This document shows, in pieces, positions 4,086 to 64,000 of a stretch of 64,000 bases of DNA. The translations under genes and the position numbers were made by a program. A model generated the notes under the pieces. That model did not search any database. It was not told the DNA's origin and was given only the letters and a program-made list of their open reading frames with translations. Each line of letters begins with the position of its first letter. Position 1 is the first letter of the stretch. Source of the stretch: a virus; IMG/VR virus record IMGVR_UViG_3300046170_000524. The stretch is one strand, 5' to 3'.

Positions 4086-7046
4086 ATGAACGAATACTTA
4101 TACAATATGTTAAAAAGTTCCGCTGAAGCGGATGTAGCAAAAGCAAAGTTGAGCCTCGACCTACTCGGAAATCACGCAGTAGGAATTGGAGATCACTCAA
4201 CAGAAGATTACTACAAGAATGCAGAAGAAGCTCTCTCGCTTCTAGCTGATGCACAAGATAGATTAGATAATCTCACAAAATTTTATGGAGAGTTAGATGA
4301 TTAGCCCTCTATCTATGCAAGAAGGAGTGATTTTTGGCGGTCTTAAAGATTTTGACTTGACAAATATTGCAAAACTGCTATTATGGAAGTCTAACGCAAA
4401 AGAGTTTACTCTAAAAGTCACGAAGGATATTGATGATTATCACATAAACATTGAAATAAAAGAAATTAAGCATGAATAAATTAGAAGAAGCAATGGGCAG
4501 AATGAATCATATCGAGCAAGATATAGAAGCAATGATATATGCAATCGGAGATTCTACTCGTAGATTTACAGAAGATGAGTTATTAAATATGTTGATTGGA
4601 ATGAATCAATTGCATAAAACTCGCTATGAAATGATGTGGCAAGAATACGAAGTTAATAAAAAGAAATACAATTCGCAATACGAAGAAGCAATAGCACAAT
4701 CTATATAATATGAATTTGCAAATAGACAAAGAAGTTGAATTACTTATTGTTGATAAAGCCTTATCGCACATAAAAAAAGTTGAGGTTAATCCTGATTTTG
4801 AAACTGATGGAGATAATTTTGACTATTGGAATAGCGTTCCGTTAAATAATGGAAGGTTTATTGACTATAATATTCACGAAGCAAACTTTGGAGAAGATTC
4901 TGATGATTATGAGTGGTTCTGTTCTGCATACGATGTTGACGAACCAAATGAAGAAAACGAATATCATCAAATAAATACCGATGTAACAAAACTTTTACTC
5001 AAATACAAAGACGGAGAAATAAAATATTATGATTGATTTTATTACATTATTAGTTATGATTATGTTTTTAATTTTTGCAGTAGATATTCTTACTAGCAGA
5101 AGATGAAAAAAGTAAGATTTAATTTATTAGAGATAAAAGACTTTTTTACAAATAAAGGTATTGAATTACGACATACTAAAAAACAAATAAGGAAAAGAGT
5201 ATCTTATAAATTTTGGCGACCAATTGTTCAGCAAGTGAGTTCAAATATAAATACATCCGAGCGAAATAATGTCTTACAAAAAATATGGAGAGAAATGGAT
5301 GATAGGCATTGTTTTCATACTATGACTCAATCTATTTATGATTTAGAATCTCTTGCTTTATGTACAGAAGATTATGACAATGGATGTTGGAGAGAAGAGT
5401 AGAAGATATGTATCATTTCATATGTTTGAAACATTTAAACCTAATTTTCAAAATAATATAATGGTTCAAGGTCTTTGGCATGAAGTTGCAGGTCAAATAA
5501 GATATGAAGCACTTATGGCAGAAGAAGACGATGGAACTCAATTAAGTTATCTTTTTCCTGAATTTGATCCTGAATCTGATGAATTTGACGATTATCCTAT
5601 TGACAAATAAATAAATACATGATATACTAAATACTATGAACGAAATAATAATGCAAACTTTGGAGTCTTTTCAAGACTCTCAGATTAATTTACAAAGCGA
5701 ATCTGCTCGCAAAATATTAGCAAATAAGTTAGAAGAAAATTTATTTAAACATATAAATGAACTTGTTGAAGAAGCGGTAAGCGTTATAACTAATTTAGAT
5801 TAATGAATAAATATAATGTCAATGATAAAATCAGTGTGACGATGCAAGCAATTAATTTAATTTACTCTCAAATAGAAAAATTAGACCCTTCCATCGAACA
5901 ATTAGACGAAATAAATAAACGACATGAATTATTAATTGACCAAGAATTATTTTGGAGCAAACAAGATAATCCGAAAAGATTTTTATATGACTTACAAGAA
6001 TTCGGTCATTGGTTATATGAATATTTAGACCTTAAAAAATACGAAAACCTAGATATAGATTTATGAATATGAAAGATACAAATAATTGGCAAATAGTTTC
6101 CGCAAGCGAAGTAGAAGAATTTTTTTACCAAGATACGGACGAAGTAGTAAATGAAGGAGATGCGGTTGGAATCGAAATAGACAACGGAGATTCAGTAGAT
6201 TTAGTTTTATTTGGGAATCTTTATTGGAGCGATCAGAATTTATACTAATTATGTGTAAATATTTATATGGTTATACCTACATTCAGAGATTTATTAAAAG
6301 GAAAATCATATAAAACTATCTTTAATCAGATATATAAAACTTATCTTAAAAAAGAAAAAGATCACAAGGTAATAGAACTTTCCCTTGATATACATAATTT
6401 AATAAAAAAAATAAGACAATCTCAAGAAAAAAATAGTATAACTAAATCATTCATCCTTACTGAACTAGAAGATGGCGAATATGATGCAAATTTTATTGAA
6501 GAAAAAAGCGATGAGATATTGCCATTAGAAAATCTAAAAGTGGAAGATATAATAAATTTAGAAGTATTAGCTCCACCAAAGTTAAATGAAATAGAAATAC
6601 TAGGGCATATTATTTGGCATTATTATGGCAGAACAAAAGGAAAGATTATATGAGTTTCGCATAGAATATATTAGCGGAAATTCAGTAGGACACAATTACC
6701 ATTATTATATGGCTCATAATGCAGAAGAAGCATTAGAATATCAACACGAAATGATGGATGCCAAACATTGGAATATTAAATTAGTAAAACTAGAAAGAAA
6801 ATGTCCATTCTCAAATAAATGGATTGACGAAAGTGATATACTAAATAATGAACATGGATGAATCAATAGTTGAACACATTTATTATGAGCGAGGCAAAAA
6901 CGACTCAAAAAATAATTGCTACAAAAAAAGATTTGCAGCTATGGCAAGATGGGTACGACAAAGGATTTGCTGATGCTCACGAAAAATTTGCAAAACTATT
7001 CGATAAAAAACTTTCGGAAATCCTTGAAGATAAAGACTTTACATAA
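4086..7046 (+). other. Run of small hypothetical early CDS (4086-4304, 4297-4479, 4472-4708, 4710-5036, 5103-5402, 5374-5610, 5636-5803, 5803-6066, 6063-6248, 6267-6653, 6625-6861 and a frameshifted ORF ~6851-7046)
   Basis: Contiguous ORFs with overlapping or adjacent start/stop; no recognisable domains. Confidence 0.6.
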
Positions 7047-43578: not shown

Positions 43579-44506
43579 TATTTGTAAGATTTGCTCTCTT
43601 GAGTTTGAGAGCGAAAAGAAACTTCATATGCACTTGAGGTCTCACAAGATTACTTTGGCGGAATATTACTTAAAGTATTACCCCAGGTATAATTTATATT
43701 TACAATCTATAGGCAAAGAAGAGCTTCTCCCTTTTAAAAACAAAGAGCAATATTTTTCTAAAGATTTCTCCACAAGAGAACAACTTTTAAAATGGTGTGA
43801 AAGTGAGTCTGCAGAAATTGTTAAGCCATATATATTAAGATTGCTAAAAAAAAGAATAGAGGGGAAAGATTTAAACTTCGCTCCCTCTCATCTAGAGTTG
43901 GCGGTGAATGAAATGCCAACTATCGAGCTTTATCAAAAACATTTTGGGTCATATTCATCCGCTTGCAATGAAGTTGGAGCGAAGCCAATGTTTGGATCTA
44001 AATTACCAAATGAGTGGACTAAGGATGTAGACCCTACGATAAAAATATTTATTGATACAAGAGAACAGCAGCCTTTGACTTTTCCTAATTCGGAATTATT
44101 AAAATTGGATTTCGGAGATTACGCAGTTGGAGGAAAACATTATGACTATACTTATGTAGACCGCAAAGGCGAGCAAGATTTTAAGTCAACATTAAGCAAA
44201 AATAACCTGGAAAGATTTAAATATGAGTTGGAGAGAACCAAGAATTTAGATTCATATTTATTTATTGTAACGGAAGGTAGTATATCTAGTATAGAAAAAA
44301 ATAATCGTTGGGCGCCTCATATGTCTAACATGAAATACATTTACCATAACATGAGAGTATTAGCTCATGAATTCGCAGGTAGCTGCCAATTTATTTTCAC
44401 TGGGAGCAGAGAAGAATCAGAAAGAATTATTCCAAAGATATTAACGTTAGGAAAAAAGCTTTGGGGCGTTGATTTGCAGTATTACATAGATAATAATTTA
44501 ATATAA
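43568..44506 (+). CDS. C2H2 zinc finger plus ERCC4/XPF-type nuclease
   Basis: CKIC...HLRSH; IDTREQ, GDY, DRKGEQDF. Confidence 0.75.
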   Translation: MSSNICKICSLEFESEKKLHMHLRSHKITLAEYYLKYYPRYNLYLQSIGKEELLPFKNKEQYFSKDFSTREQLLKWCESESAEIVKPYILRLLKKRIEGKDLNFAPSHLELAVNEMPTIELYQKHFGSYSSACNEVGAKPMFGSKLPNEWTKDVDPTIKIFIDTREQQPLTFPNSELLKLDFGDYAVGGKHYDYTYVDRKGEQDFKSTLSKNNLERFKYELERTKNLDSYLFIVTEGSISSIEKNNRWAPHMSNMKYIYHNMRVLAHEFAGSCQFIFTGSREESERIIPKILTLGKKLWGVDLQYYIDNNLI

Positions 44507-46377
44507 TGGCGTGGGAAACAGGAAATCAATTATCTAGAAATTCAGAAATGAGCTTCAACGAGCAACTTGAAGAAATTAAAGGTTTCATCGAAGAGAAGGA
44601 AGCTAAAATTTTATTGTATAAATTTCTTAGAGAAAATATCACATTTACCGCTGACTTAGTTAGCGGCGTTCAGCTATTCCCTTTTCAGCACATGGCGATT
44701 AAAGCTATGTTCAGCACAGATTACTTTATGGGAGTTTGGTCTCGAGGAATGAGTAAATCTTTTACTACTGCAATATACGCTTATCTAGATGCAATATTAA
44801 ATCAAGGTGTTGAGATTGGTATATTATCTAAGTCTTTTCGTCAAGCAAAAATGATCTTTAAAAAAATTGAAGACATTGCTTCAAAACCTGGTGCGACTTA
44901 TCTAGCGCAATGCATATCTCATAAATCAAAAAGCAATGACGAATGGTTGCTTGAAATAGGTAGCAGTAGAATACGCGCATTACCTCTCGGAGATGGAGAA
45001 AAGTTACGGGGATTTCGTTTTCACAGAATTATTATTGATGAGTTTGCTTTGATGCCCGAAAGGATTTATAATGAGGTCATCATACCTTTTCTTAGTGTTG
45101 TTGAGAATCCAACTCAGCGAGAAGAGCTTTACAATCTAGAGACAAATTTAATCCAAAAAGGAGAAATGTCTGAAGACGATAGGCATGTTTGGAGAAACAA
45201 TAAATTAATTGCACTAAGCTCTGCAAGTTATAAATTCGAATACATGTATAAAGCTTACGAGCAATTCGAAGAGTTAATAATGGCTGGCAGCACAAAACAA
45301 AGTGACGCTCATAGAGTAATAATGCAGTTTAGTTATGATTGCGCCCCAAAACAGTTGTACGATCAAAATCTTCTAGATCAAGCTAAATCCACAATGAGTC
45401 AAAGCCAGTTCGATCGGGAGTTTGGTTCTATATTCACAGATGATAGTAGTGGGTATTTTAAAACCTCTAAAATGGCATCTTGCACACTTAAAGATGGGGA
45501 AAACCCTCATATAGAAGTTTGTGGAGAAGTTGGTGCAAAATATATATTGGCATTTGATCCAAGTTGGGCGGAGAGTGAGAGCAGTGACGACTTTGCGATG
45601 ATGGTATTCAAATTAAATGATGATAAAAAAATTGGCACTGTAGTTCATAGCTATGCATTATCTGGAACAAACTTAAAACAACATATATTTTATTTTTATT
45701 ATTTGCTAACTCATTTTAATATTGTATCTATTGTAGGAGATTATAATGGAGGAGTTCAGTTTATAAATGCATGCAATGAAAGTTCATTATTTAAAAAGAA
45801 TAAATTAAATATTGGATGTATGAATACAAACTTTGATGATATAGAACATTATCAACAAAAATTAATAGAAGGAAAAAAGGAATACAATTTACAGGATAAG
45901 ACGATTTGTTATCTGCGCAAACCTACAAGCCAATGGATTAGATTAGCAAATGAATTACTTCAAGCAAATTTTGATCACCATAGAATATATTTCGCGAGCA
46001 GGGCAATAGATGATGCATATAACGAACAAAGAAATAAAAAAATACCTATACAAGATATTAAATTCTTAAGAACTTCTCAAAGCTTAGAGAGGCAAACTAA
46101 CGCTGCAAAAATGATTGATTTCGTAGAGCATCAATTTGACATGATGAACTTAATTAAAACGCAATGCTCCCTTATTCAAATATCGACTTCTGCAGGAGGA
46201 ACACAAACTTTCGATTTGCCATCGAGCTTAAAAAGACAAACAGGTCCAGAGAAAGCCAGAAAAGATTCTTATTCTGCATTAGTTCTTGGAAATTGGATGA
46301 TTAAGCTTTATTATGATATGATGAATGTTAAGGCGGAAAATGTGAATTATACTTTTACTCCCATGTTTATAAACTAG
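44506..46377 (+). CDS. terL: Terminase large subunit
   Basis: SRGMSKS Walker A, RGFRFHRIIIDE Walker B, LAFDP...DDFA and KDSYSAL RNase H-like motifs. Confidence 0.9.
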   Translation: MAWETGNQLSRNSEMSFNEQLEEIKGFIEEKEAKILLYKFLRENITFTADLVSGVQLFPFQHMAIKAMFSTDYFMGVWSRGMSKSFTTAIYAYLDAILNQGVEIGILSKSFRQAKMIFKKIEDIASKPGATYLAQCISHKSKSNDEWLLEIGSSRIRALPLGDGEKLRGFRFHRIIIDEFALMPERIYNEVIIPFLSVVENPTQREELYNLETNLIQKGEMSEDDRHVWRNNKLIALSSASYKFEYMYKAYEQFEELIMAGSTKQSDAHRVIMQFSYDCAPKQLYDQNLLDQAKSTMSQSQFDREFGSIFTDDSSGYFKTSKMASCTLKDGENPHIEVCGEVGAKYILAFDPSWAESESSDDFAMMVFKLNDDKKIGTVVHSYALSGTNLKQHIFYFYYLLTHFNIVSIVGDYNGGVQFINACNESSLFKKNKLNIGCMNTNFDDIEHYQQKLIEGKKEYNLQDKTICYLRKPTSQWIRLANELLQANFDHHRIYFASRAIDDAYNEQRNKKIPIQDIKFLRTSQSLERQTNAAKMIDFVEHQFDMMNLIKTQCSLIQISTSAGGTQTFDLPSSLKRQTGPEKARKDSYSALVLGNWMIKLYYDMMNVKAENVNYTFTPMFIN

Positions 46378-49893: not shown

Positions 49894-51318
49894 ATGGCAA
49901 ATAAAAAACAATCGAGTAAAGCTAAATCTTCCAAGAAAAAATTAGCAGATTTAGAGCAAACAAATGGCAAGGTATATGAAGATAAAGTGGCTCGCGCAAA
50001 AGAGCTTGAAGATCTTCTAGGAATACCTAAGATTAACCCTTTCAAAACTAATGACAAAAGAGTCTTTCAGGAAATGCTTCAAGATATGAATTTAACAGAC
50101 CTACAAGCCTTTGCCGTTAAGGTTGGAGTTTTTCCTTCTGGCAATAAAACCGTATTGAAAAATAAAATTAAGAGAGCATTTGATTCAAGCTTGTATGGAA
50201 AAGGCAGTGTTCAAATTATGGGTGAACCAATGAAGCTTGACCCTAAAAATCCTACTCATAAAGAAGTCATTGATTATTTAAACAATTAACATGTCCCACG
50301 ATTTATTTCCAGATACAAATCTAGGTAAACTAGCAGTTAATATTTACGATCAAGATATTGGCGATCAAGAGCATGGAGAAGCAAGGAATAAAGAAATCAC
50401 ATTAATATCTGGCTGGATAGAAGGGCATTTAGGCGAATTAAATAACTTAATCTATACTTCTTTTAGTGGAGATAATCCAGAAGGCTTTAATTTGGAGGAA
50501 CAATCGATTATAAGAGAAATGTATATATCTGATTATAATCGAAAAGCTCAGAGAAAAGTTTTAAATGGATCAATGAACGGTTCTGATTTCCTTGTGATAA
50601 AAGAAGGTGACTCAATGATACAAAAACCTAATCAGAATTTAATAGCTAAAAGCTATCAAGACGCATATGATTCATCTCAAGACAGATTGAAAGATTTGAT
50701 TTATTCTTATAATCTATACAGCGCGAAGCCAAATCAAGTTTATGGTGCGGACGCTCCATCTACTGGGCAAAATCCTTCCTTAGATTCATATTATAAATAA
50801 AAGGTGTAACAAAATATATGGACAATATATCCGAAAGCAATAATTCTAATAAAATAGTTAAATCCCAATTATTTCATATCTGGAAAAAATCAAGATTAAT
50901 GTATGATATGGTTAAGGACGAAACTGTATTAGAAGACTGGGTTAAGAAAAGTATTTTTGAAGCTTACGAAAACATAGACCAAGCTCTACAATACGCTGAG
51001 TACGAAAAAATATTTCCAAATCAGAAAGAGCAGGGGGAAGTCGGCGATAAAGAGAAAAATAATTATCTTAGTAATCAAGATAAGCGTTATCCGACTCCCG
51101 CTTCTCAAGAAACTGGGGATCAATTTATGACAAGATGCATTCTCGACGCAAATATGAAAAAAAGATACCCTGTTCAGGGAGATAGGTTTGCGGCGTGCAT
51201 GTCTATTTTTAATGATAAGAAAGATGAAGGATCCACAAATCCTGGAGAGAAATTTGAAGACCCGATGGAAGTTAAGGATAAGGAAGAAATTAATCCTGTT
51301 AAACCTTTGCTTCCGTAA
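49894..51318 (+). other. Three head-associated hypothetical CDS (49894-50289, 50291-50800, 50818-51318)
   Basis: Follow MCP; 49894 and 50818 are preceded by GTGTA. Confidence 0.6.
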
Positions 51319-53776
51319 TATTATATATAATATCTTCTTTGCTAAAGCTAAATTTGATATTTTGATTATCTTTAAGGTCTTTACTTAAGAGGAGTTTAGA
51401 GAGCTTGTTTTCTATGTGTTTTTGAATTAATCTCTTAACTGGTCTCGCCCCCATCTTTTCTAATGCTGCAGATTCTGCTATAAAAGATGATACTTTAGGA
51501 GTGATTGATATTTTTATATTTCTATCTTTTAATTTATCTGAAAGCTTATCTGCTTCTAGTTTTACGATTTTAGATATATCTTTTGCGTCAAAATTTTTGA
51601 ATAAAATTATTTCATTCAAGCGATTTAAGAACTCTGGCCTAAAAAATGTCTTTAATTCATTTTTTAGTTTATCCATAGCTTCTGTTTCTCCTATTGGCGC
51701 ACCAAAACCTATTGAGGGTTTACTAATTTTTTCGCTGCCTATATTACCGGTTAAAATAATTGTGCAATTAGAGAAGTTAATTTTTCTGCCTGAATTGTCT
51801 GTAACAAAACCTTCTTCGAGGATTTGCAACAAAATGTTTAAAACCTCTGGGTGAGCTTTCTCTACCTCATCAAATAATACAACGCTATAAGGATTTCTTC
51901 TAACTTTTTCAGTTAATTCTCCACCCTCTTCATATCCAACATATCCTGGAGACGCACCAATAAGGCGACTGGACGAAATTTTCTCGGAAAACTCGCTCAT
52001 ATCCAATTGAATTAATTTATCTTTGCTTCCGTATATAAATTCAGCAATGCATTTAGCTGTATATGTTTTCCCTGTGCCGCTCGCGCCCACAAGCAAAAAA
52101 CTCCCTACAGGTTTACTTGGGTCTTGTAATCCGGACTTCGATCTTAATATACATTCTGAAATTTCTTTTATAGCTTGTTGTTGGCCAACAATTTTTTTAT
52201 TTAACTGTTTAAAAAGTCCAAGCATTTTTTCGGAATCTTTTCTGGAGACTTCTGACATGGGAATTCCTGTTCTGGCAGAAATAACTTCATATATATCTTT
52301 TTTTCTAACTGAAATTTTAGATTTTATAGTTTTTGTTGCCCACTCAGAAATAACTTCGTCATATCTTTCAAGTAGATCTAATTGTTTATCCTCTAGTTCA
52401 ATAGATCTTGCGCCAGTTAAGTGAACCTTTGATTCTTGCAGGGCTAAATTTTCCAATTCTTTTTCAATGTCTTTGGCTTCCTGGGGTCTTTCAATGTTTT
52501 TAATTTTGACTTTTGAGCCGACTTGATCTAAGATATCAATTGCTTTGTCTGGAAATTGTTTATCTACAATATATCTCGCTGAGAGGTTTACAACCAGATC
52601 TAACACTTCATCTGGGTAATAAATACTATGGAATTGCTCGTATTTAGTTTTTATACCATAAATTATTTGTTTAGCTTCTTCTTTTGTCGGCTCAATAACC
52701 TTTACACCCTGAAATCTTCTATCTAGAGCTCCGTCTTTTAATATAGATTTTTTATATTCTTCTTGCGTGGTTGCTCCAATGCATTTTAATTCTCCTCTAG
52801 CCAATAATGGCTTTAATAAATTTGCTGCATCCATACTTCCTTCGGCGCTACCTGCGCCAACTAAAGTATGTATTTCGTCAATAAATAATATTATATCTTT
52901 ATTTTTCTTAGCCTCCTCGATAATGCCCTTTAACCTCTCTTCAAATTGACCTCTATATTTTGTTCCCGCTATTAAAGATCCCAAATCTAGGGAATAAATT
53001 ATTTTATTGAGCAAGAAATCGCAGCAAGATCCATTCGTGATTTCTTGAGCTAAACCTTCAACTATAGCGGTTTTACCTACTCCTGGGTCACCCAAAAGAA
53101 CTGGGTTATTTTTAGTTCTTCTACATAAGATTTCGCATACTTCAGATATTTCTTTATTCTTACCTATGATATTGTCAAATTTACCTTGAGATGCTAAGTT
53201 GTTTAAATTAGTAGCAAATTTTTCTAAGTTTTGTAATTTTGAATCTTTTGCAGGAGCTGGTTGTGTGAAGTACTTTTCTCTGCTTTTAGTGTTGGGTTTA
53301 TGTTCCTTGGATAAATGAAGATATTCTCTTACTTCGGCAATAATATCATTTTCTGTAGCATTAAATGATTCGAAATATTCTGGTATATTTGACTCTTCGT
53401 ATTTAAGCAAAGCTAAAAGTATATGTTCAATTCCAACATATTCGTGACCGAGTTTTTCGCTGATTGAAGCGGCGACCTTTAATACAAGATGAAAGTGCTC
53501 ATCATAAACAGGGGAATTTTCTTCTGGATCTACATTGAGCTGATCTTGGTCGGACATTACAAAAAGAGAGTCTTCAATTTTTTCTTTTAATTGCATTTGA
53601 TCAATTTGCAGCAAAAATAAAATTTCACTTAAAATTCCAGCATTTAAATTAACCATTCCGAAAAATAAATGATCTAATGTGATATACTCGTTAAAATATT
53701 TTTTAGCAACCTTTTTAGCTTCATTTATGGCTTGTTGTGCGCGAGGCGTAAAGTTAGGTTTTGGAGTCATTTTCAT
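51299..53776 (-). CDS. ClpA/ClpC-type AAA+ ATPase (Clp N-domain, two NBDs, IGF loop)
   Basis: GDPGVGKT, LFIDEIH, RRFQ, GASGTGKT, LFDEVEKAH, SIGFG, RPEFLNR. Confidence 0.92.
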   Translation of the reverse strand: MKMTPKPNFTPRAQQAINEAKKVAKKYFNEYITLDHLFFGMVNLNAGILSEILFLLQIDQMQLKEKIEDSLFVMSDQDQLNVDPEENSPVYDEHFHLVLKVAASISEKLGHEYVGIEHILLALLKYEESNIPEYFESFNATENDIIAEVREYLHLSKEHKPNTKSREKYFTQPAPAKDSKLQNLEKFATNLNNLASQGKFDNIIGKNKEISEVCEILCRRTKNNPVLLGDPGVGKTAIVEGLAQEITNGSCCDFLLNKIIYSLDLGSLIAGTKYRGQFEERLKGIIEEAKKNKDIILFIDEIHTLVGAGSAEGSMDAANLLKPLLARGELKCIGATTQEEYKKSILKDGALDRRFQGVKVIEPTKEEAKQIIYGIKTKYEQFHSIYYPDEVLDLVVNLSARYIVDKQFPDKAIDILDQVGSKVKIKNIERPQEAKDIEKELENLALQESKVHLTGARSIELEDKQLDLLERYDEVISEWATKTIKSKISVRKKDIYEVISARTGIPMSEVSRKDSEKMLGLFKQLNKKIVGQQQAIKEISECILRSKSGLQDPSKPVGSFLLVGASGTGKTYTAKCIAEFIYGSKDKLIQLDMSEFSEKISSSRLIGASPGYVGYEEGGELTEKVRRNPYSVVLFDEVEKAHPEVLNILLQILEEGFVTDNSGRKINFSNCTIILTGNIGSEKISKPSIGFGAPIGETEAMDKLKNELKTFFRPEFLNRLNEIILFKNFDAKDISKIVKLEADKLSDKLKDRNIKISITPKVSSFIAESAALEKMGARPVKRLIQKHIENKLSKLLLSKDLKDNQNIKFSFSKEDIIYNITEAKV

Positions 53777-53792
53777 GTAATTACACTGTAAA

Positions 53793-56351
53793 TTATTTAA
53801 TATCAGACATTTTCATATATATCTTTTCATCCATTATATTCAATGAATCTAAAAAAACTATATCTTCACCTTTTCTTCCGTATACTACTATTATGTTCTT
53901 TTTTGATGGAGTTTTCTTTTTTGATTCAAAATATCTGTCATAAAAATTACCTCTTCTTGAGTTTAAGAGCATGGCATCATATTTACCATGTTCATCTGTA
54001 ATTGATAGTTTCATATATTTATTTCCATTACGAGAAGTTCTTTTGATGCAATCTTCTACAACTCCGATAAATTTACCTTTGTCATCTGAATTCATAAGAT
54101 TTAAGTCCCTTGAATCTTTTAATGCCTCATAGGAGTCCATAAAGCATGATTTTAGTGAAGAGCTGTGACTGTATCCAAGCAACTCTGTTTCAAAATACCA
54201 ATTAGCAAAACCTTGATACATTTTATTTTTATCGTAAATTGACTTATATATGTCATATTTTTTCTTAAATGTTTTAAATCTAGACTCTTTCATCAAAGGC
54301 TTCCCGTCATCTCCAACTAGGTCGCCTTTTTTGGCATCTGCTATGCAGTTTAGAAGTTTATATTCATATTTATCACCAAGAGAAATAAAATTGCGTTTCT
54401 CTCTATCAGTGAGGAGGTTAAATGCTTGAGCTTCAAGTACCATTAGCGATCTATTTTTACCTTTACTTTCTAGAGCTCCAGCTTGTATTAACGCGCTCAA
54501 AATACCAATGTTTAATCCTGCTTGCTTTGCTGCGAGAAAGATGTCGTATTTTGTCGGAGTTTCACTAGAACGAAAATCTCTAAGAGACTGAAGGGATTTC
54601 TCGCTTACGCCCTTGATGCTATTTAGTCCAAATCTAATATTTTTACCTTCAATAGAAAAATCCATTCCAGACTTAGCTAAGTCGGGGGATAATAATTTAA
54701 TTCCGAAATTAGATAGTTCTTGGCATACTTTAGCTATTTCTTCTTGTGGAGAAGGCTCGTATTTGGTCATTTTTAATAAAGATATAAAAAACTGCTGTGG
54801 ATAGTTAAATTTTAGATAAGTGGTCCATGCTGATAGAGTTGCGTATGCAAGAGAGTGCGATTTGTTAAAAGAATAGTTCGCGCTATCTTCTGCTACACTC
54901 CACAAAATGTGGGATATTTCTCTAGGCAGATCGTTTTGCTCTACTTTGTCTTCAATCTTCTTTTTCCATGCAGGCATTTGATCAACTTTTTTCTTACCAA
55001 CGATCCTTCTGAGCTGTTCCGCTTCATCAAGAGTGAACCCAACTTTAACCGCCATTTGCATTAATTGCTCTTGATAGAGTGGAATTCCTCCTGTATAGTC
55101 TAAAACGTCACTAAAAAATTCATGGATGACCTGAGCCTCTTCTGTTTCAGAATATGTGGCATAGTTATCTAAAAATTCTAATGCACCTGGCCTTCCAATT
55201 GCCACAACTGCACTAAGCTGCTCTAGGTCTTTTGGCTTGATTTTCTTGCAGACCCTATAGTTTGTGTCAGACTCAAGCTGAAAAAGCCCGTGAGGCGCCT
55301 TCAGGCCTTGCAGAGGTTTATATACGTCTGCGTCATTTAGGTCTACAGCGGAAATATCCATGTCTAAGTTGCGACACACATCATAAATCACACTTAATGT
55401 TCTTAAACCTAAGATATCAAACTTTACCATAAGCTCTGCAACCCAATTCATGTCGTACCCTGTCACTAAAGCTCCATCATTTGATTTTTGAATTGGGCAA
55501 ATATCAGTAATTTTTTGGAAAGAAATTGCGATTCCGCTAGGGTGTACGCCAGTGTTTTTATTTAAACCTTCTAGCTTAAGAGCGATCTCAAAGACTTCTG
55601 CGTTATTAGCTGCCCAATCTGCAAATTTTTCACTCTCTTCTATTGCAGATGAAATTGGCATAACAACTCCAAACTTTTTTGGAATGGTGTCGCTAACCTC
55701 ATTAACTTCTTGCTCAGAAAATTCTCCAGCAATTTTTCCGCATTCCTTTATACAGAGCTTTCCGCTAAGAGTGTTTAGCGTTAATATTTTAGCTGTACGA
55801 GCAGGATGTTTTTTTTCTATGTATTCTATAACCTCAGCCCTTCTTTCATAAGCAATATCATTATCCACGTCAGCCAAAAGGCTGCCATCAAGATATGTTG
55901 TTCCGTTTTTTTCTATTTTTCTTGCCCTACTTTTAGAAACAAAACGCTCGAAAAATAAGCTGTATTTAACTGGATCAACATTAGTTACGCCAATTAAGTA
56001 TAAAACTAGGGAGCCCGCAGCAGATCCTCTGCCTGGGCCCGTAGGTATATCATTTTCGTGGCAATAATTTATTATATCCCAGTTTAATAAAATATAATCT
56101 ATAAACCCTAGCTCATCTAAGATTTTAAGCTCTGATTTTGCTCTATCAAAATATTCTTTCTTATTTTTAAATTTATCTATACCTCTATCATAAACTCCTT
56201 TATGGCATAGCTTACGTAGAAAGTCGAAGTTTGAAATATCTTCTGATGCATCAAGCATTTCATAGTATTTCTTTTCGATTTTAATTTCTGGTAATTTTAC
56301 GCCTGGAGGTGCACAATCTTCGTAATCTGTAAACTGTTCTGTAAAACTCAT
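53793..56351 (-). CDS. dnaE: DNA polymerase III alpha subunit core (no PHP domain)
   Basis: GPGRGSAAGSL, DVDND, HPSG, KFDILGL, FNKSHS, RFGLNSIKG; start TAATG-coupled at 56351. Confidence 0.92.
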   Translation of the reverse strand: MSFTEQFTDYEDCAPPGVKLPEIKIEKKYYEMLDASEDISNFDFLRKLCHKGVYDRGIDKFKNKKEYFDRAKSELKILDELGFIDYILLNWDIINYCHENDIPTGPGRGSAAGSLVLYLIGVTNVDPVKYSLFFERFVSKSRARKIEKNGTTYLDGSLLADVDNDIAYERRAEVIEYIEKKHPARTAKILTLNTLSGKLCIKECGKIAGEFSEQEVNEVSDTIPKKFGVVMPISSAIEESEKFADWAANNAEVFEIALKLEGLNKNTGVHPSGIAISFQKITDICPIQKSNDGALVTGYDMNWVAELMVKFDILGLRTLSVIYDVCRNLDMDISAVDLNDADVYKPLQGLKAPHGLFQLESDTNYRVCKKIKPKDLEQLSAVVAIGRPGALEFLDNYATYSETEEAQVIHEFFSDVLDYTGGIPLYQEQLMQMAVKVGFTLDEAEQLRRIVGKKKVDQMPAWKKKIEDKVEQNDLPREISHILWSVAEDSANYSFNKSHSLAYATLSAWTTYLKFNYPQQFFISLLKMTKYEPSPQEEIAKVCQELSNFGIKLLSPDLAKSGMDFSIEGKNIRFGLNSIKGVSEKSLQSLRDFRSSETPTKYDIFLAAKQAGLNIGILSALIQAGALESKGKNRSLMVLEAQAFNLLTDREKRNFISLGDKYEYKLLNCIADAKKGDLVGDDGKPLMKESRFKTFKKKYDIYKSIYDKNKMYQGFANWYFETELLGYSHSSSLKSCFMDSYEALKDSRDLNLMNSDDKGKFIGVVEDCIKRTSRNGNKYMKLSITDEHGKYDAMLLNSRRGNFYDRYFESKKKTPSKKNIIVVYGRKGEDIVFLDSLNIMDEKIYMKMSDIK

Positions 56352-56995
56352 TATACTTCTATCTCCCATATCATTTTTTTGAATACTTCGTAGTTAACTC
56401 TAATGTCATATAAAGCATCATGCAATTTTTTCTCATCAAAGTCAACATCAAAATCTTTGCAGCATTGCTTTAGATTACAACTTAAGCCTCTCTCGATAAG
56501 GTGGTTAAGTCGATATTGCCACGCTAAAAAATTATCGTCTTTGTCTAATCTAATTCTTTTCTTTAGAGCTTTTGCTAGGCAAAGAGTGTCTACTAGGTGT
56601 TCTGTGTAGCTAAAATCAGCCTCTGCATTTTCATCAATTAATTTTCGATGAACATTATGCATGTAAACATCAAAACCTAATAGATTATGGCCAACCTTGA
56701 GATATGAGTCGTCATACAAATATTTCTCAAAGTGATCTAATGCGGCTTTGGGGCATGTAGCTTTTTTCTTATACTTTGCCTCGGTAAAGCCAGTAATTTT
56801 TGCGGCATCAGGGGATACATTTAATTCTTCCCACTTAAGCCAATAATCTTTCTGTTCAACAATTTTGTTGTTTTCTATGACAAGAAATGCTAATTGCCAT
56901 GGTTTATTATTTGAAACAAGATTTAAATTACATGTTTCATAATCGAACAGTAAATACTTTTTATTCTTTTGAAATCTAAGCAGTGATTCTTTCAT
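56351..56995 (-). CDS. DEDDh 3'-5' exonuclease (DnaQ-like)
   Basis: FDYETC, GHNLLGFD, HDALYD. Confidence 0.85.
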   Translation of the reverse strand: MKESLLRFQKNKKYLLFDYETCNLNLVSNNKPWQLAFLVIENNKIVEQKDYWLKWEELNVSPDAAKITGFTEAKYKKKATCPKAALDHFEKYLYDDSYLKVGHNLLGFDVYMHNVHRKLIDENAEADFSYTEHLVDTLCLAKALKKRIRLDKDDNFLAWQYRLNHLIERGLSCNLKQCCKDFDVDFDEKKLHDALYDIRVNYEVFKKMIWEIEV

Positions 56996-57531
56996 TGAAT
57001 GTCTTTTCTTTGTGTGTTGTTATAATCGATAAATAATTCTTCATCTTTAAGAATTTCTTTATTTGTAGTAAATCGAAAACAAAAATCTTTATAATCTATA
57101 TTATAATCTATATTATTTTTTTGTGAGTGATTGTATATCATGCCATATCCCAATACAGTGGCTGTTGAAAAAATTTTATTTAAATCCTTATAACCTAGGG
57201 AATTAAGCTCTTCAATGAACGTATTTGCAATTTCTTCGTCATCTATATTAAGTAAAAATTTACTCCTAAAGTCGAGTTTTTGATTCTGTTCTGCGCTTAT
57301 TTTTTTATCATAAAACATAGAGAAAATGTATCTTTTAAGCTCCGCGTCCTGCACTTCAATTGGGCAACCAGATACGATAAAGTGACACTCTTCGATAACT
57401 TTTCCTGCCTCTATATTTTGATCTGCAAAAACTCCTCTACCCATTTTTTCTGTATTTCTTACAGAAATACATTCTGGCTTAACTAGATTGCTTTTCATTT
57501 TTTTTCTTCCAGCTTTCGAAGCAAAATTCAT
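56992..57531 (-). CDS. SET-domain lysine methyltransferase-like protein (start may be 57498)
   Basis: GRGVFA..I..G, YNHS..NN, I..DEELFIDY. Confidence 0.8.
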   Translation of the reverse strand: MNFASKAGRKKMKSNLVKPECISVRNTEKMGRGVFADQNIEAGKVIEECHFIVSGCPIEVQDAELKRYIFSMFYDKKISAEQNQKLDFRSKFLLNIDDEEIANTFIEELNSLGYKDLNKIFSTATVLGYGMIYNHSQKNNIDYNIDYKDFCFRFTTNKEILKDEELFIDYNNTQRKDIQ

Positions 57532-58252
57532 TGCTGCCGAAGTGATCTAAGTTTGGTTTTGATAATGTTTTATTACCGAAGCTTCTACCAGTGATGCACT
57601 TATATGTTTGTAGAGCCTTTACGTCTTTTTTGTTTTTATAATATATACTTTTTGTATGTTGTGTTTTTAAATTATTACCAGCTGCATACTCTTGAACTTT
57701 TTTAGCCACAAAATTATCAAATGGAAGAGAATTATTCTCTATAAACAATGTTGGCTTACAAAAATCAAAGTTTGGTGTGCAATTGCAAAATTTAATTAAA
57801 TTATTAAATATAAATGAATCATAAAATGGTACAGCCAGTAGTAAGTCTTTATTTTTCCAGTATTTTTTTAAAGTCTTGCGATCCACACAATTGAAGTTCT
57901 CTGTATTAGCTTCGCTTGATATACTATTTAACAATTTGCATCCATTTGCGTTTTTGGCAAAGATTATGATCTTATGCGAGGATTGTTGACTTTCTTCTTT
58001 AGGGTTGATTTTAGAATCTTCTTTCATGTTTATTCTTAAACCAAAAATTAATTTTAATCCAAGATTGTCTGCTTGTTTTTTAGCTTGTAGGAATCCAGTT
58101 AATGAATCTTCTACAAGAACTACTTCTTTTAATTTATTTTCTGTAGCAATTGTAAAAACACTGTCCGACTTACCTTCTTTATGTGTAATTGGATCTTCAA
58201 GCGTTAATATACTTTTGCCTATAGAAAAGTGACTTTTAAATAAAGGAATCAT
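57479..58252 (-). CDS. PHP domain of DnaE encoded as a separate gene
   Basis: KSHFSIGKSIL, GLKLIFG, IIIFAKNANGCKLL; leaderless promoter TTGACA(58287)-17-TAGAAT-6-ATG. Confidence 0.75.
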   Translation of the reverse strand: MIPLFKSHFSIGKSILTLEDPITHKEGKSDSVFTIATENKLKEVVLVEDSLTGFLQAKKQADNLGLKLIFGLRINMKEDSKINPKEESQQSSHKIIIFAKNANGCKLLNSISSEANTENFNCVDRKTLKKYWKNKDLLLAVPFYDSFIFNNLIKFCNCTPNFDFCKPTLFIENNSLPFDNFVAKKVQEYAAGNNLKTQHTKSIYYKNKKDVKALQTYKCITGRSFGNKTLSKPNLDHFGSNEFCFESWKKKNEKQSS

Positions 58253-61109: not shown

Positions 61110-62123
61110 ATGAATGATAAAACAGGAGAATTACTAACAAAAAATATCGCGGGGGTAAATAGAATTTTACCTCATAAACATAAATATGCGTGGGATTTAT
61201 TTTTAAAGAGTTGTGCCAATAATTGGATGCCTACTGAAATTAGTATGCAAAACGACATTAAACAATGGAAAAACGATGAAATTACAGAAGACGAAAAATT
61301 ACTCGTTAAACGCTGCCTTGGATTCTTTGCGGGATCTGAGTCTTTGGTTGGTAATAACCTGCTGCTTTCGGCTTTTAGATTTATTACTGATGCTGAATGC
61401 CGTCAGTATATACTTCGTCAGGCTTTTGAAGAAAGCCTTCACAATCTTACAGTAGTATACGTTTGTGATAGTTTAGATTTGGATATAGAAGAAGTTTTTG
61501 CCGCTTACGAAACAATACCAAGCATTAAAGCAAAAGATGACTTTTTGATGACTATCACTAATGATATTAGTCGCCAAGACTTTAACGCTCACACTACAGA
61601 AGGCAAGCAAGAAATTTTACGTAATTTTTTAACCTATTGGATTGTTTGTGAAGGAACTTTCTTTTTCAGCGGGTTTGCAATGCTATTGGCTTTAGGTCGC
61701 CAAAATAAACTTCAAGGAATTTCTGACCAAATTAAATACACTCTTCGCGATGAAAGTTCTCATATTGCATTTGGCACGTATTTAATTAATACTTTGATCG
61801 AGCAAAATCCCGAAATATGGACAGAAGAAATACAGCAAGAATTTGTTGAACATATGAAAAAAGCTGTTGAGCTTGAAATAGCTTATGCGCACGATGTTCT
61901 TCCTACGGGAATACTTGGACTAAATGCAGAAATGTTTGTTGAATATATGCACTATATTGGAAATCGTAGATTAGAGGGTATTGGTCTAGAGTATCGCTTC
62001 CCTAGCGACAAAAACCCTTTCCCTTGGCTTAGTGAGGTTGTTGATGTCCAGGCAATGGGGAATTTCTTCGAAAGAAGAGTTAGGGAGTATCAACAGAGCG
62101 GCTCTTTAGAAGACGATTTCTAA
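61110..62123 (+). CDS. nrdB: Ribonucleotide reductase beta subunit
   Basis: W.P.EI, EESLH..Y, EG..FFSGF, RDESSH, FFERRVREY. Confidence 0.93.
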   Translation: MNDKTGELLTKNIAGVNRILPHKHKYAWDLFLKSCANNWMPTEISMQNDIKQWKNDEITEDEKLLVKRCLGFFAGSESLVGNNLLLSAFRFITDAECRQYILRQAFEESLHNLTVVYVCDSLDLDIEEVFAAYETIPSIKAKDDFLMTITNDISRQDFNAHTTEGKQEILRNFLTYWIVCEGTFFFSGFAMLLALGRQNKLQGISDQIKYTLRDESSHIAFGTYLINTLIEQNPEIWTEEIQQEFVEHMKKAVELEIAYAHDVLPTGILGLNAEMFVEYMHYIGNRRLEGIGLEYRFPSDKNPFPWLSEVVDVQAMGNFFERRVREYQQSGSLEDDF

Positions 62124-63188
62124 TAAAGAAGATTCGACCGTTACTCCTGGGCCAAAAGTTGCTGAAAAAATATTTTTTTCATTGTTCGAACAATTTTCTA
62201 ATACTTCTTTTAATACAAATAAAATAGTAGGGCTACTCATATTTCCGTATTGTTTGAGGATATTTCTAGAATGTTTTAAATCTGCATCTGGTTTGAATTT
62301 TTGAAACGAATCAAGTATCGCTCTTCCTCCAGGATGAATTGCCCAGCAGTCTATAGAGCTTTCTATTTCTGGCATATACTTAAGAGCTTGATTTATATTT
62401 TCGGATATAAAATTTGGAAGATCTGGGTTTAAGGTTAAATCGAAGCCATTATCTCCAACCTTCCACGCTAAATTTTTTCCATCATCATTTATTACATGAG
62501 AATTAAATGATTTCATTTCTAAAAATGGTTGTTCTTTTGTTAATTTTTTATTAGAAGAAACTATGCAGGCCGCACAACCATCAGAAAAAATAGAGTTTCC
62601 TATAATATAGTTTACATCATCTGTTAGTTTCATGTGCAGAGTACACATCTCAATGCAGACAACTAAAACCTTAGCATCTTTATTGCTCTTGCAAAATTCT
62701 GATGCGGTTTTTAAGGCTGGAAATGCAGCTTGACATCCCATGAAACCAATATTTACCCTTTCTATATTTTTATTTAAATTAAATTCATTTATGATCTCTA
62801 TGTCTAAGCCTGGATTATAGAAACCCGTACATGAAACAGTTATAATGTGGGTAATTTCTTGTAGGTTTATTTTTTTTGAAATTTTTGATATTGCATTAAA
62901 AGCAAGCGGGCCACTGTTTTTTTTATATATATTATTTCTTTCTGAAGTAGAAGGATTATGCAAAGTATTGTTTTCATTTCTATGGAAAAGTTCTGTTTCA
63001 GTAGTTGAAAACTTTAAGTCTTTTACTACAGAGTATCTATTTTTAATGCCAGATTTTTTGATTGCTTGTTTAATTAAAAGCTTATACCTTCTATCATCTT
63101 GAAAGTGAGTGATAAAATTGTAAATTTCTTCTTGGCTGCTTTTGCATTGAGGATTTGAGGTCTCTATGCAGTTTATATATGTTCCCAT
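62106..63188 (-). CDS. Type III polyketide synthase (chalcone synthase family)
   Basis: VSCTG, FMGC (catalytic Cys), FSDG, HPGG (His), GNMSS (Asn), FGPG. Confidence 0.9.
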   Translation of the reverse strand: MGTYINCIETSNPQCKSSQEEIYNFITHFQDDRRYKLLIKQAIKKSGIKNRYSVVKDLKFSTTETELFHRNENNTLHNPSTSERNNIYKKNSGPLAFNAISKISKKINLQEITHIITVSCTGFYNPGLDIEIINEFNLNKNIERVNIGFMGCQAAFPALKTASEFCKSNKDAKVLVVCIEMCTLHMKLTDDVNYIIGNSIFSDGCAACIVSSNKKLTKEQPFLEMKSFNSHVINDDGKNLAWKVGDNGFDLTLNPDLPNFISENINQALKYMPEIESSIDCWAIHPGGRAILDSFQKFKPDADLKHSRNILKQYGNMSSPTILFVLKEVLENCSNNEKNIFSATFGPGVTVESSLLEIVF

Positions 63189-63225
63189 AAAATATATTAT
63201 GGGAATTTAAAATGAATTCAACAAA

Positions 63226-64000
63226 TTAGCCCAAAATATCTAATAAGGGCTCACCTTTATGGGCTATAGTAAAAGGCCTGCCTGATGGAGAATATTGGTA
63301 GTCATTTAGTGGAAGCCCTAAAGTATGCGCAATCGTTGCATTTAAGTCTTCTGGCTTGATTGGCTTACCTTTTGTGGGAGTACGGCCTGTTTTGTCAGTT
63401 TCCCCATAAGTCATTCCACCTTTAACTCCTCCCCCCGCCAAAAAAGCGGTAAAACAATAAGGCCAGTGATCTCTTCCGTCTCTTCCATTGATATTTGGAG
63501 TTCTTCCAAATTCAGAAGTTAAAACCACTAAGGTGTCAGAAAGCATACCTCTTCGGTTTAAATCAATTAACAGGCCGCTTAAAGCTTGATCGATGTCAGT
63601 ACAATTTGCTGCAACTCTATCAAAGTTATTATCATGCGTATCCCATCCACCTCTTGTTACTTCAACGTATCTTACGCCATGCTCTACGAGCCTTCTTGCT
63701 AATAAGCATCCTTTTGCAAAATTAGTTTGACCATAAAGATTGCTTGTGGACTCAGGCTCTTTTGTAATGTCAAAAGCATTTAAGTCATTACTATTCATTA
63801 ATTTAATTGCGTCTTTGTATAGAGTCAGAGTAAGCTCTTACTTGTTTTCTGCGGGAACTGGGTGGAAAAATTCTCATTTAGATGCCTCTGCGATAGATAT
63901 TCTGCTTTGAAAATGCTCGTGATCTAGAGTATGATGCCATTTTGCTATTGGCTAGTCCTGCGGCTTGGATTATTGATTGGTAAGGCGCCGTATTTAGATT
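63226..64000 (-). CDS. DUF1501-family protein, partial; 5' part frameshifted
   Basis: CLLARRLVEHGVRYVEV..GGWDTH, TSEFGRTP, GRDHWP, LAGGGVKGG. Confidence 0.85.

What the first reader, a model, noticed from the sequence alone, without database searches (positions are those of the whole stretch)
62106..63188. Phage-encoded type III polyketide synthase
The Cys-His-Asn triad is intact in a 360 aa chalcone-synthase-family enzyme whose 3' end overlaps nrdB by 18 bp, and its composition matches the phage genes. Bacterial homologues make alkylresorcinols or alkylpyrones from acyl-CoAs. A secondary-metabolite synthase is a very unusual viral auxiliary gene, and could alter membrane properties or act as a signal.
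Basis: partly seen in the sequence, partly recalled or inferred. Interest (0 to 1): 0.7.

Follow-up and report, generated by a model that had tools for sequence, protein, structure and literature searches.

The report
Marine phage type III polyketide synthase
A large uncultured marine phage carries an intact, selectively maintained plant-type (type III) polyketide synthase with its own phage-style promoter; it probably makes phenolic lipids from the host's fatty-acid pool during infection, an ability I found described for no lytic phage.

Summary
Window 62106-63188 (-) is an intact 360-aa type III polyketide synthase (PKS) with Cys152/His285/Asn316. Its 3' end overlaps the convergent nrdB by 18 bp, and its composition is phage-like.

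It is not a chimera. Two independent assemblies, a 122-kb IMG/VR contig and a 32.7-kb GenBank metagenome contig, each about 89% identical, show the same DUF1501-PKS-nrdB order. Terminase lies on one side and tail genes on the other.

Thirteen relatives without the PKS have a GC-rich terminator hairpin at this junction, so the PKS is a 1.1-kb accessory insertion. It is under purifying selection (dN/dS 0.08-0.09 at dS about 0.5). It sits behind a conserved TTGAAT-16-TAATAT-5-ATG promoter, the same layout used by the phage's nrdB, DnaE and ligase genes.

The four-member phage clade branches deeply (44% identity or less to any cellular protein), and the donor is unresolved. Cellular relatives lie in srsABC/hidABC-type operons (PKS, methyltransferase, FAD monooxygenase). 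The phage has the PKS alone.

The tunnel residues (Thr121/Cys182/Met186) and the "aldol-switch" Trp242 predict long-chain alkylresorcinols, with pyrone by-products, made from host acyl and malonyl thioesters. A membrane-protective role is inference.

Other notes of this scan, which I did not check, report different PKS cassettes in T4-like marine phages.

The parts
62106..63188 (-). Type III polyketide synthase CDS, 360 aa, intact
   Evidence: AlphaFold2 model pLDDT 86. Foldseek TM-score 0.84-0.87 to PKS18, M. marinum type III PKS and Ectocarpus PKS1. dN/dS 0.075-0.09 against two other phage genomes.
62733..62735 (-). Codon of catalytic Cys152 (His285 at 62334-62336, Asn316 at 62241-62243)
62463..62465 (-). 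Codon of Trp242, the position of ArsB Trp281 / PKS18 Leu266 (resorcinol versus pyrone switch)
   Evidence: HMMER alignment to PKS18, with the ArsB/PKS18 equivalence stated in PMC7064976. Trp is invariant in all 80 cellular relatives.
62631..62645 (-). Cys182, His185 and Met186. Together with Thr121 (62826-62828), Cys182 and Met186 fill the three PKS18 acyl-tunnel positions Thr144/Cys205/Ala209
63189..63225 (-). 37-nt spacer between the DUF1501 stop and the PKS start. It holds a sigma-70-like promoter: -35 TTGAAT at 63221-63216, 16-nt spacer, -10 TAATAT at 63199-63194, then 5 nt to the ATG. No Shine-Dalgarno sequence.
   Evidence: Sequence. The spacer is 35-36 of 37 identical among three genomes whose synonymous divergence is about 0.5. 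The same promoter-to-ATG layout sits at 13 ORF starts in the window, against 0.14 expected.
62106..62123 (.). 18-bp antisense overlap: the last PKS codons (LEIVF-stop) are the reverse complement of the last nrdB codons (LEDDF-stop)
61110..62123 (+). nrdB (ribonucleotide reductase small subunit), convergent neighbour with its own TTGACT-17-TACAAT promoter abutting the ATG
63226..64000 (-). DUF1501 gene immediately upstream on the same strand. In this window it is broken by five 1-nt insertions (63822-63961); it is intact (430 aa) in L001.

Best explanation
This is a functional type III polyketide synthase carried as a flexible accessory gene by an uncultured marine tailed-phage lineage. The lineage has a genome of roughly 190-200 kb and a DnaE-type replicase.

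Shown:
- The gene was inserted at the convergent nrdB/DUF1501 junction in place of the ancestral bidirectional terminator.
- It has taken on phage base composition.
- It carries a conserved sigma-70-type promoter placed 5 nt before its ATG, the layout this phage uses for nrdB, DnaE and DNA ligase.
- It is under purifying selection.

Inferred:
- It is transcribed by host RNA polymerase as a nearly leaderless early or middle message.
- The enzyme loads a long-chain fatty acyl thioester from the host (CoA or ACP) on Cys152 and extends it with three host malonyl-CoA units.
- It closes the ring by aldol condensation to give 5-alkylresorcinols, with tri- or tetraketide alkylpyrones as by-products.
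- Because the phage has no methyltransferase or monooxygenase partner, the free phenolic lipid is the end product.

Most speculative step: the amphiphile enters the infected cell's membrane and stabilises or protects it (against premature or external lysis, or oxidative stress) until the phage's own lysis.
For: Real and phage-borne:
- The same DUF1501-PKS-nrdB-nrdA order occurs in the window, in L001 (122-kb IMG/VR contig, CheckV completeness 86%) and in L162 (MDTB01102988.1), at about 89% nucleotide identity.
- Terminase lies at window 44506-46377. Tail-J-like, tail-assembly and minor-tail genes lie on the other side of the PKS in the L001 contig.
- The window's exact protein is on 12 contigs of up to 194 kb.

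Insertion:
- 13 PKS-less relatives carry a 52-98-nt spacer with a GC-rich hairpin and T-run at this site. The three PKS genomes carry exactly 1102 nt instead.

Selection and expression signals:
- dN/dS is 0.075-0.09 at dS about 0.5.
- 53 of 59 columns that are at least 95% conserved in 80 cellular homologues are kept in all four phage-clade proteins, and the six changes are conservative.
- The 37-nt upstream spacer is 95-97% identical.
- The promoter layout is shared with 12 other gene starts.

Chemistry:
- The best solved relatives by sequence and fold are the long-chain acyl enzymes PKS18, M. marinum type III PKS and Ectocarpus PKS1.
- Tunnel positions are Thr/Cys/Met, and Trp sits at the ArsB-281 position.
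- 63 of 80 cellular relatives have a SAM methyltransferase directly downstream, 59 of 80 have a flavin monooxygenase and 16 have a UbiA prenyltransferase. This is the srsABC/hidABC-type phenolic-lipid context (PMC10896814).

Stand-alone feasibility and effect:
- A marine type III PKS expressed alone in E. coli made C13/C15 alkylresorcinols from the host acyl pool. The cells became more resistant to phage endolysins and to H2O2 (PMC13730376).
- The L001 contig has no match to AMP-binding, PP-binding, FAD_binding_3 or the partner methyltransferase.
Against: - No expression, product or phenotype data exist.
- The Trp rule is imperfect: DquA has the Trp yet makes only pyrones (PMC9827899).
- The phage clade has its own substitutions near the cavity: Gln153 for Tyr, Leu240 for an invariant Met, Leu251 for Met at the CHS Phe265 site, and Asp256 for Tyr. 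Chain length or product could therefore differ from the cellular relatives.
- The gene is rare. Only 1 of 80 nrdB-related IMG/VR loci carries it, and the backbone is mosaic, so it is dispensable.
- Several members of the 69-72% identity clusters are truncated or split, e.g. 162 aa ending just after the catalytic Cys, and a 224-aa plus 110-aa pair on one 32-kb contig. These may be decay or sequencing error.
- The L001 contig is only 86% complete, so missing partner genes are not proven absent.
Confidence: 0.6

Rival explanations
1. Different chemistry and role. The enzyme makes a small or diffusible polyketide (pyrone, phloroglucinol-type or another aromatic) that acts as a signal, an antimicrobial against competitors or other phages, or a pigment, rather than a membrane lipid.
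For: Type III PKSs are promiscuous. The clade-specific cavity changes (Gln153, Leu240, Leu251, Asp256) and the long stem branch of 1.5 substitutions per site allow neofunctionalisation. The only other annotated phage type III PKS (ZL12) is RppA-like. DquA shows that the Trp rule can fail.
Against: The tunnel positions, the Trp and 53 of 59 family-conserved positions are retained. The nearest structures are long-chain acyl enzymes. The cellular relatives sit in phenolic-lipid operons.
Confidence: 0.2
2. Neutral or decaying passenger. The gene was captured from a cell at a variable site downstream of nrdB and gives the phage no benefit.
For: The gene is rare among relatives. The junction is a variable spot that holds other small ORFs in other relatives. 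Truncated or split copies exist in clusters 3 and 4.
Against: dN/dS is 0.08-0.09 over dS of about 0.5. The upstream promoter spacer is conserved. Composition is fully ameliorated. The clade spans 67-92% identity with the active site intact, and at least 45 contig observations are on record.
Confidence: 0.08
3. Metabolic sink or FabH-like role. The enzyme mainly drains malonyl-CoA or acyl thioesters, or primes fatty-acid synthesis, to redirect host lipid metabolism. The product itself would be irrelevant.
For: The thiolase fold and the Cys-His-Asn triad are shared with KAS III. There are weak FabH-model matches.
Against: FabH models score 30-42 bits against cut-offs of 249-304, while both chalcone-synthase domains pass their cut-offs. 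The gatekeeper Phe201 and the FGPG loop typical of type III PKSs are conserved.
Confidence: 0.05
4. Assembly chimera, or a host gene beside a prophage end.
For: The window carries frameshifts in nrdA and DUF1501 nearby. One 1.7-kb contig carrying the gene was binned in a 'Flavobacteriia' MAG.
Against: Three independent assemblies share the junction. Phage structural genes lie on both sides. The spacer and promoter are conserved. PKS-less relatives show a precise empty site.
Confidence: 0.02

Closest known systems
Bacterial Srs/Hid-type alkylresorcinol synthases (S. griseus SrsA, cyanobacterial HidC, planctomycetal type III PKSs; PMC10896814) and stand-alone marine ArsMB (PMC13730376)
   Same: Same Pfam domains, catalytic triad, second active-site Cys (Cys120), tunnel-type residues and Trp at the aldol-switch position. 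The 80 nearest cellular homologues (34-42% identity) mostly lie in PKS-methyltransferase-flavin monooxygenase operons.
   Different: The phage gene has no methyltransferase or monooxygenase partner. It forms a separate clade on a 1.5-substitution-per-site stem, with 44% identity or less to any cellular protein. It has clade-specific cavity substitutions. It sits in a phage genome behind a phage-style promoter.
M. tuberculosis PKS18 (PDB 1TED), long-chain alkylpyrone synthase
   Same: Best solved relative by sequence (E = 3e-44), with TM-score 0.86. Thr and Cys are kept at tunnel positions 144 and 205.
   Different: PKS18 has Leu266 where the phage enzyme has Trp242, Ala209 where it has Met186, and Leu348 where it has Ser318. 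The cyclisation outcome and tunnel shape probably differ.
Streptomyces plasmid-phage ZL12 (pZL12.100) type III PKS; type III PKSs in actinobacterial plasmid prophages (PMC10023795)
   Same: A type III PKS annotated inside a phage record. It is the only hit among 50,697 GenBank phage records.
   Different: Identity is 24%. The ZL12 enzyme is RppA-like (naphthalene type) and lies next to a transcriptional regulator in a temperate plasmid-prophage of a high-GC actinomycete. It belongs to a different subfamily and has no evident common origin.
Type III PKS cassettes with ACP, AcpS, reductase, oxygenases and desaturases in marine T4-like phages
   Same: Marine lytic-type phages that carry a type III PKS predicted to make a lipid-like polyketide.
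   Different: Those are multi-gene cassettes with their own carrier protein. This one is a single gene in an unrelated phage lineage. The sequence look-up listed none of those cassettes among its look-alikes. My motif scans of IMG/VR found only this lineage and one 5.6-kb fragment.

Membership tests
Type III polyketide synthase (chalcone synthase superfamily) | Chal_sti_synt_N and Chal_sti_synt_C domains above Pfam gathering scores | tested here: met
   76.2 and 74.6 bits against a cut-off of 27.
Type III polyketide synthase (chalcone synthase superfamily) | Cys-His-Asn catalytic triad | tested here: met
   Cys152/His285/Asn316 align with PKS18 Cys175/His313/Asn346 and are invariant in 84 sequences.
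Type III polyketide synthase (chalcone synthase superfamily) | Gatekeeper Phe (CHS Phe215) and the C-terminal FGPG loop, which separate the family from KAS III (FabH) | tested here: met
   Phe201 and Phe345-Gly-Pro-Gly348 are conserved. FabH models score far below their cut-offs.
Type III polyketide synthase (chalcone synthase superfamily) | Thiolase-type fold of solved type III PKSs | tested here: met
   AlphaFold2 pLDDT 86 and pTM 0.90. Foldseek TM-score 0.84-0.87 to 1TED, 7D41 and 4B0N. The dimer was not modelled.
Type III polyketide synthase (chalcone synthase superfamily) | Iterative decarboxylative condensation and cyclisation activity | not testable with these tools
   Needs an enzyme assay.
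Long-chain phenolic-lipid synthases (ArsB, SrsA, HidC, BpsA, CepA type) | Acyl-binding tunnel residues at PKS18 positions 144/205/209 (Thr/Cys/small or hydrophobic) | tested here: met
   Thr121/Cys182/Met186. BpsA has Thr/Cys/Phe and CepA has Thr/Cys/Leu. Tunnel geometry was not measured.
Long-chain phenolic-lipid synthases (ArsB, SrsA, HidC, BpsA, CepA type) | Trp at the ArsB-281 position, favouring aldol (resorcinol) closure | tested here: met
   Trp242 corresponds to PKS18 Leu266, and PMC7064976 states that this site is ArsB Trp281. The rule has a known exception, DquA.
srsABC/hidABC-type operon | PKS co-located with a methyltransferase and a FAD-dependent oxidoreductase | tested here: not met
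   These partners are present in 63 and 59 of 80 cellular relatives. They are absent beside the phage gene and gave no match in the 122-kb L001 contig.
Phage auxiliary (moron-type) gene | Embedded in a phage genome, absent from close relatives at a precise site, with its own promoter | tested here: met

The most novel reading that the evidence does not exclude
A lytic marine phage makes its own natural product. Free long-chain alkylresorcinols, built from host fatty acyl and malonyl thioesters early in infection, load the infected cell's membrane. There they would act as 'virocell armour': a membrane stabiliser and antioxidant that delays premature or external lysis, or blocks superinfection. 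This may work together with the ClpB and Hsp20 chaperone genes a few kilobases away. It would be a new class of phage auxiliary metabolism (polyketide or phenolic-lipid synthesis).
Probability: 0.3. Interest if true: 0.8.

Novelty: new variant of a known kind. Interest (0 to 1): 0.6.

Why it matters
Known phage auxiliary genes mostly boost nucleotide, photosynthetic, carbon, sulfur or phosphate metabolism. A secondary-metabolite synthase that needs only ubiquitous host substrates would extend this to small-molecule and lipid natural products made by the infected cell.

The case is unusually testable. It is one 1.1-kb gene with no partners. There is a published precedent that a stand-alone marine type III PKS makes alkylresorcinols in E. 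coli and changes sensitivity to endolysin and peroxide. Natural PKS-plus and PKS-minus phage genomes with a precisely defined empty site are available for comparison.

Tried and rejected
- **Whole-genome file.** None is held for this window.
- **The look-up of encoding contigs.** I therefore could not fetch the contigs, of up to 188-256 kb, that carry the 69%-identity cluster (P0003 group), and its genomic context is unknown. The only hint is that its C-terminus, LLEVVF, is exactly the antisense reading of an nrdB LEDDF-stop end. That suggests the same junction, by inference only.
- **PHROGs.** No family matches the PKS.
- **Donor.** The tree does not resolve it. A clade of phage plus Verrucomicrobiaceae is not rejected (AU p = 0.37), so neither a host-phylum origin nor any other is shown.
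- **Host.** Not determined. DUF1501 is multicopy in a Prosthecobacter MAG. It gave no match in the Opitutales, Bacteroidota and Balneola MAGs that I probed.
- **Sulfated alkylresorcinols via the phage's reported sulfation operon.** The PKS-bearing L001 contig has no Sulfotransfer_1 or Sulfotransfer_3 match. The idea is not supported, but the contig is incomplete.
- **Shared leaderless 'ATGATTAAGA' tag and GTGTA late motif.** The PKS has neither.
- **Consensus promoter scan.** It missed the PKS promoter because the match is 8 of 12, below the scan's threshold of 9.
- **Terminase.** It has no close cultured relative, at 26% identity or less.
Full report
**1. Observation**

The minus-strand ORF 62106..63188 encodes 360 aa from an ATG. 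It matches both chalcone/stilbene-synthase Pfam domains well above their cut-offs (76 and 75 bits against 27). The FabH models of NCBIfam fall far below theirs.

HMMER alignment to M. tuberculosis PKS18 (1TED, E = 3e-44) places Cys152, His285 and Asn316 on the catalytic Cys175/His313/Asn346. nrdB (61110..62123, +) converges on the PKS. The last 18 bases are shared, so LEIVF-stop of the PKS is the antisense of LEDDF-stop of nrdB.

PKS GC (30.7%), GC3 (23.5%) and codon usage fall within the spread of 36 other window genes. The genes for the nearest cellular homologues have a median GC of 60%.

**2. Is it really in a phage?**

The window holds a large terminase (44506-46377), a tail-fibre-like gene, a DnaE-type polymerase, a DNA ligase and ribonucleotide reductase genes.

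Two independent assemblies carry the same DUF1501-PKS-nrdB-orf89-nrdA order. L001 is IMGVR_UViG_3300021425_004462 (122 kb, CheckV completeness 86%), and L162 is GenBank metagenome contig MDTB01102988.1 (32.7 kb). Each is about 89% identical in DNA to the window.

In the 122-kb contig the far side of the PKS holds a tail-J-like protein (phrog_31, E = 1e-114), a tail-assembly domain and a minor tail protein. Phage hallmark genes therefore lie on both sides.

The window's exact protein is on record on 12 contigs, the longest 194 kb. Its 90% cluster has 17 sequence variants from JGI, ENA, NCBI and Logan. A chimera or a host flank is excluded for practical purposes.

The window has 1-nt indels in nrdA (two homopolymer sites) and in DUF1501 (five within 140 nt) relative to L001, where both genes are intact. 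The PKS has none.

**3. An accessory insertion at a defined site**

Among the 80 best nrdB-related IMG/VR loci (of 325), only the L001 contig carries the PKS.

In 13 relatives with the convergent nrdB/DUF1501 arrangement, the two stops are separated by 52-98 nt. That spacer contains a GC-rich hairpin followed by a T-run, which is a bidirectional terminator. In the three PKS genomes the interval is exactly 1102 nt and the hairpin is gone. Other relatives carry unrelated small ORFs at this spot, so it is a variable site.

The backbone is mosaic. The window's nrdA 3' part is 95.7% identical to the PKS-less L002 and L003 but only 85-86.5% identical to the PKS-bearing L001 and L162. The cassette therefore comes and goes, or recombines, among close relatives.

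**4. Signs of function**

- Pairwise dN/dS for the PKS is 0.075-0.09 at dS about 0.5. For comparison, nrdB is 0.03.
- Of 59 alignment columns that are at least 95% conserved in 80 cellular homologues, 53 are identical in all four phage-clade proteins. The other six are conservative changes.
- The 37-nt spacer between the DUF1501 stop and the PKS ATG is 35-36 of 37 identical among the three genomes, far above synonymous-site conservation.
- The spacer reads TTGAAT, 16 nt, TAATAT, 5 nt, ATG, with no Shine-Dalgarno sequence.
- The pattern TTGAnn-N15-18-TAnnnT-N4-7-ATG occurs 20 times in the window, against 7.1 +/- 2.6 in simulated sequence. It sits at the start of 13 ORFs of at least 60 aa, against 0.14 expected. 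These include nrdB, the DnaE PHP gene and DNA ligase.

The PKS therefore carries the promoter layout of this phage's replication-class genes. I infer transcription by host sigma-70 polymerase into a nearly leaderless early or middle message.

Against constant function, some members of the 69-72% clusters are truncated or split. This could be decay or sequencing error.

**5. Origin**

The nearest proteins form a small clade: 92% identity, then 67%, 69% and a partial at 72%. All other hits are at or below 44%.

In a maximum-likelihood tree with 80 GTDB homologues, the four phage-clade sequences are monophyletic (support 100). They sit on a stem of 1.5 substitutions per site, and the sister group is unresolved. 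Joining them to the Verrucomicrobiaceae is not rejected (AU p = 0.37). The donor is unknown. The capture is old or was followed by fast evolution.

**6. What it probably makes**

Sequence and fold searches both put the long-chain-acyl enzymes first: PKS18, M. marinum type III PKS and Ectocarpus PKS1.

PMC7064976 names three PKS18 tunnel-volume positions, Thr144/Cys205/Ala209. The PKS18 alignment maps them to Thr121/Cys182/Met186 in the phage enzyme. BpsA has Thr/Cys/Phe and CepA has Thr/Cys/Leu at these positions.

The residue equivalent to ArsB Trp281, ArsC Gly284 and PKS18 Leu266 is the proposed resorcinol-versus-pyrone switch. It is Trp242 here, and Trp is invariant in all 80 cellular relatives. 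The rule is imperfect, because DquA has the Trp yet makes pyrones.

The cellular relatives lie in phenolic-lipid operons. A SAM methyltransferase is directly downstream in 63 of 80, a FAD_binding_3 monooxygenase is present in 59 of 80, and a UbiA prenyltransferase is upstream in 16. These match the srsABC/hidABC type described in PMC10896814.

The phage has none of these partners. The 122-kb contig also has no acyl-CoA ligase or carrier protein match. The best-supported product is therefore an untailored 5-alkylresorcinol, plus pyrone derailment products, made entirely from host acyl and malonyl thioesters.

Clade-specific substitutions near the cavity (Gln153, Leu240, Leu251 at the CHS Phe265 site, Asp256) leave room for a shifted chain length or product.

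**7. What it may do for the phage (inference)**

A stand-alone marine type III PKS (ArsMB) expressed in E. coli made C13/C15 alkylresorcinols from the host pool. The compounds stayed cell-associated, and the cells became more resistant to three phage endolysins and to H2O2 (PMC13730376).

Phenolic lipids also harden Azotobacter cyst membranes and alter beta-lactam sensitivity in Streptomyces (as summarised in PMC7064976).

The PKS lies in a stretch rich in host-type maintenance and envelope genes: ClpB, Hsp20, GDP-mannose dehydratase with GDP-fucose synthase, an OMP-like protein, and the PSD1-DUF1501 pair.

The most likely role is remodelling or protecting the infected cell's membrane before lysis. 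Signalling, antibiosis or a pure metabolic drain remain possible.

**8. Comparison with what is known**

- In 50,697 GenBank phage records the only hit is the RppA-like enzyme of Streptomyces plasmid-phage ZL12, at 24% identity.
- The literature I could search mentions type III PKSs only in actinobacterial plasmid prophages (PMC10023795). It holds no marine or lytic-phage case.
- Three motif scans of 2.9 million IMG/VR contigs found only this lineage plus one 5.6-kb fragment. These scans see only this subfamily.
- Other notes of this scan (e1-5363034, e1-5390348; unchecked by me) report type III PKSs inside ACP/desaturase cassettes of marine T4-like phages. Those are multi-gene systems in another phage lineage, and the sequence look-up listed none of them among its look-alikes.

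**9. Verdict**

This is a real, intact, selectively maintained phage-borne type III PKS. As an enzyme it belongs to a known family. As a single-gene, stand-alone viral clade behind a phage promoter it is a new variant. The predicted chemistry is moderately supported, and the biological role is open.

Noticed in passing
window 56992-57531 (-): A 179-aa SET-domain (lysine methyltransferase type) ORF (Pfam E = 1e-12) occupies a roughly 500-bp insertion between the PHP-domain gene and the exonuclease gene of the polymerase cluster. The insertion is absent from L001 and L162.
   Followed up: partly
window 53793-58252 (-); L001 14902-18894: The DnaE/PolC-like replicase is encoded as three separate genes in all three genomes: a PHP domain (257-269 aa), a DnaQ/RNase_T-type exonuclease (214-228 aa) and the polymerase core (858 aa). 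This looks like a real split rather than a frameshift artefact.
   Followed up: partly
window 59560 and 60663 (nrdA); 63822-63961 (DUF1501): nrdA is broken by two 1-nt homopolymer indels. DUF1501 is broken by five clustered single-base insertions within 140 nt. Both genes are intact in L001, so these are probably assembly or sequencing errors. The tight cluster of five insertions is odd.
   Followed up: partly
window, 13 gene starts (e.g. 16249, 17746, 41467, 58252, 61110, 63188): Sigma-70-like promoters (TTGAnn-N15-18-TAnnnT) end 4-7 nt before the ATG. There are 13 such sites at ORFs of at least 60 aa, against 0.14 expected. This implies leaderless or near-leaderless messages for replication-class genes.
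   Followed up: yes
L002-L026, interval between the nrdB and DUF1501 stops: A conserved GC-rich bidirectional terminator hairpin (AAGCCCCC-loop-GGGGGCTTTTTT or AGGCCTCC-TTCG-GGAGGCTTTTTT) marks the empty site. Some relatives (L071, L012) carry other small ORFs there, so the site is an insertion hot spot.
   Followed up: partly
window 51299-53776 (-); L001 4760-5212, 681-2665: The phage encodes a full-length ClpB-type disaggregase (825 aa). Its relative L001 also encodes an Hsp20, a GDP-mannose 4,6-dehydratase and a GDP-fucose synthase near the PKS. Together these form an island of host-type maintenance and envelope genes.
   Followed up: no
proteins P0141/P0145 (one 32,133-bp contig) and P0143 (227,954-bp contig): In the 69-72% identity sister clusters some PKS copies are split (224 aa plus 110 aa) or truncated just after the catalytic Cys. 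I could not fetch the DNA to tell decay from error.
   Followed up: no
L170 (IMGVR_UViG_3300026116_000298, 5167-5598): A 5.6-kb IMG/VR contig ends in a partial type III PKS that is 37% identical to the query. Whether it is viral is unknown.
   Followed up: no
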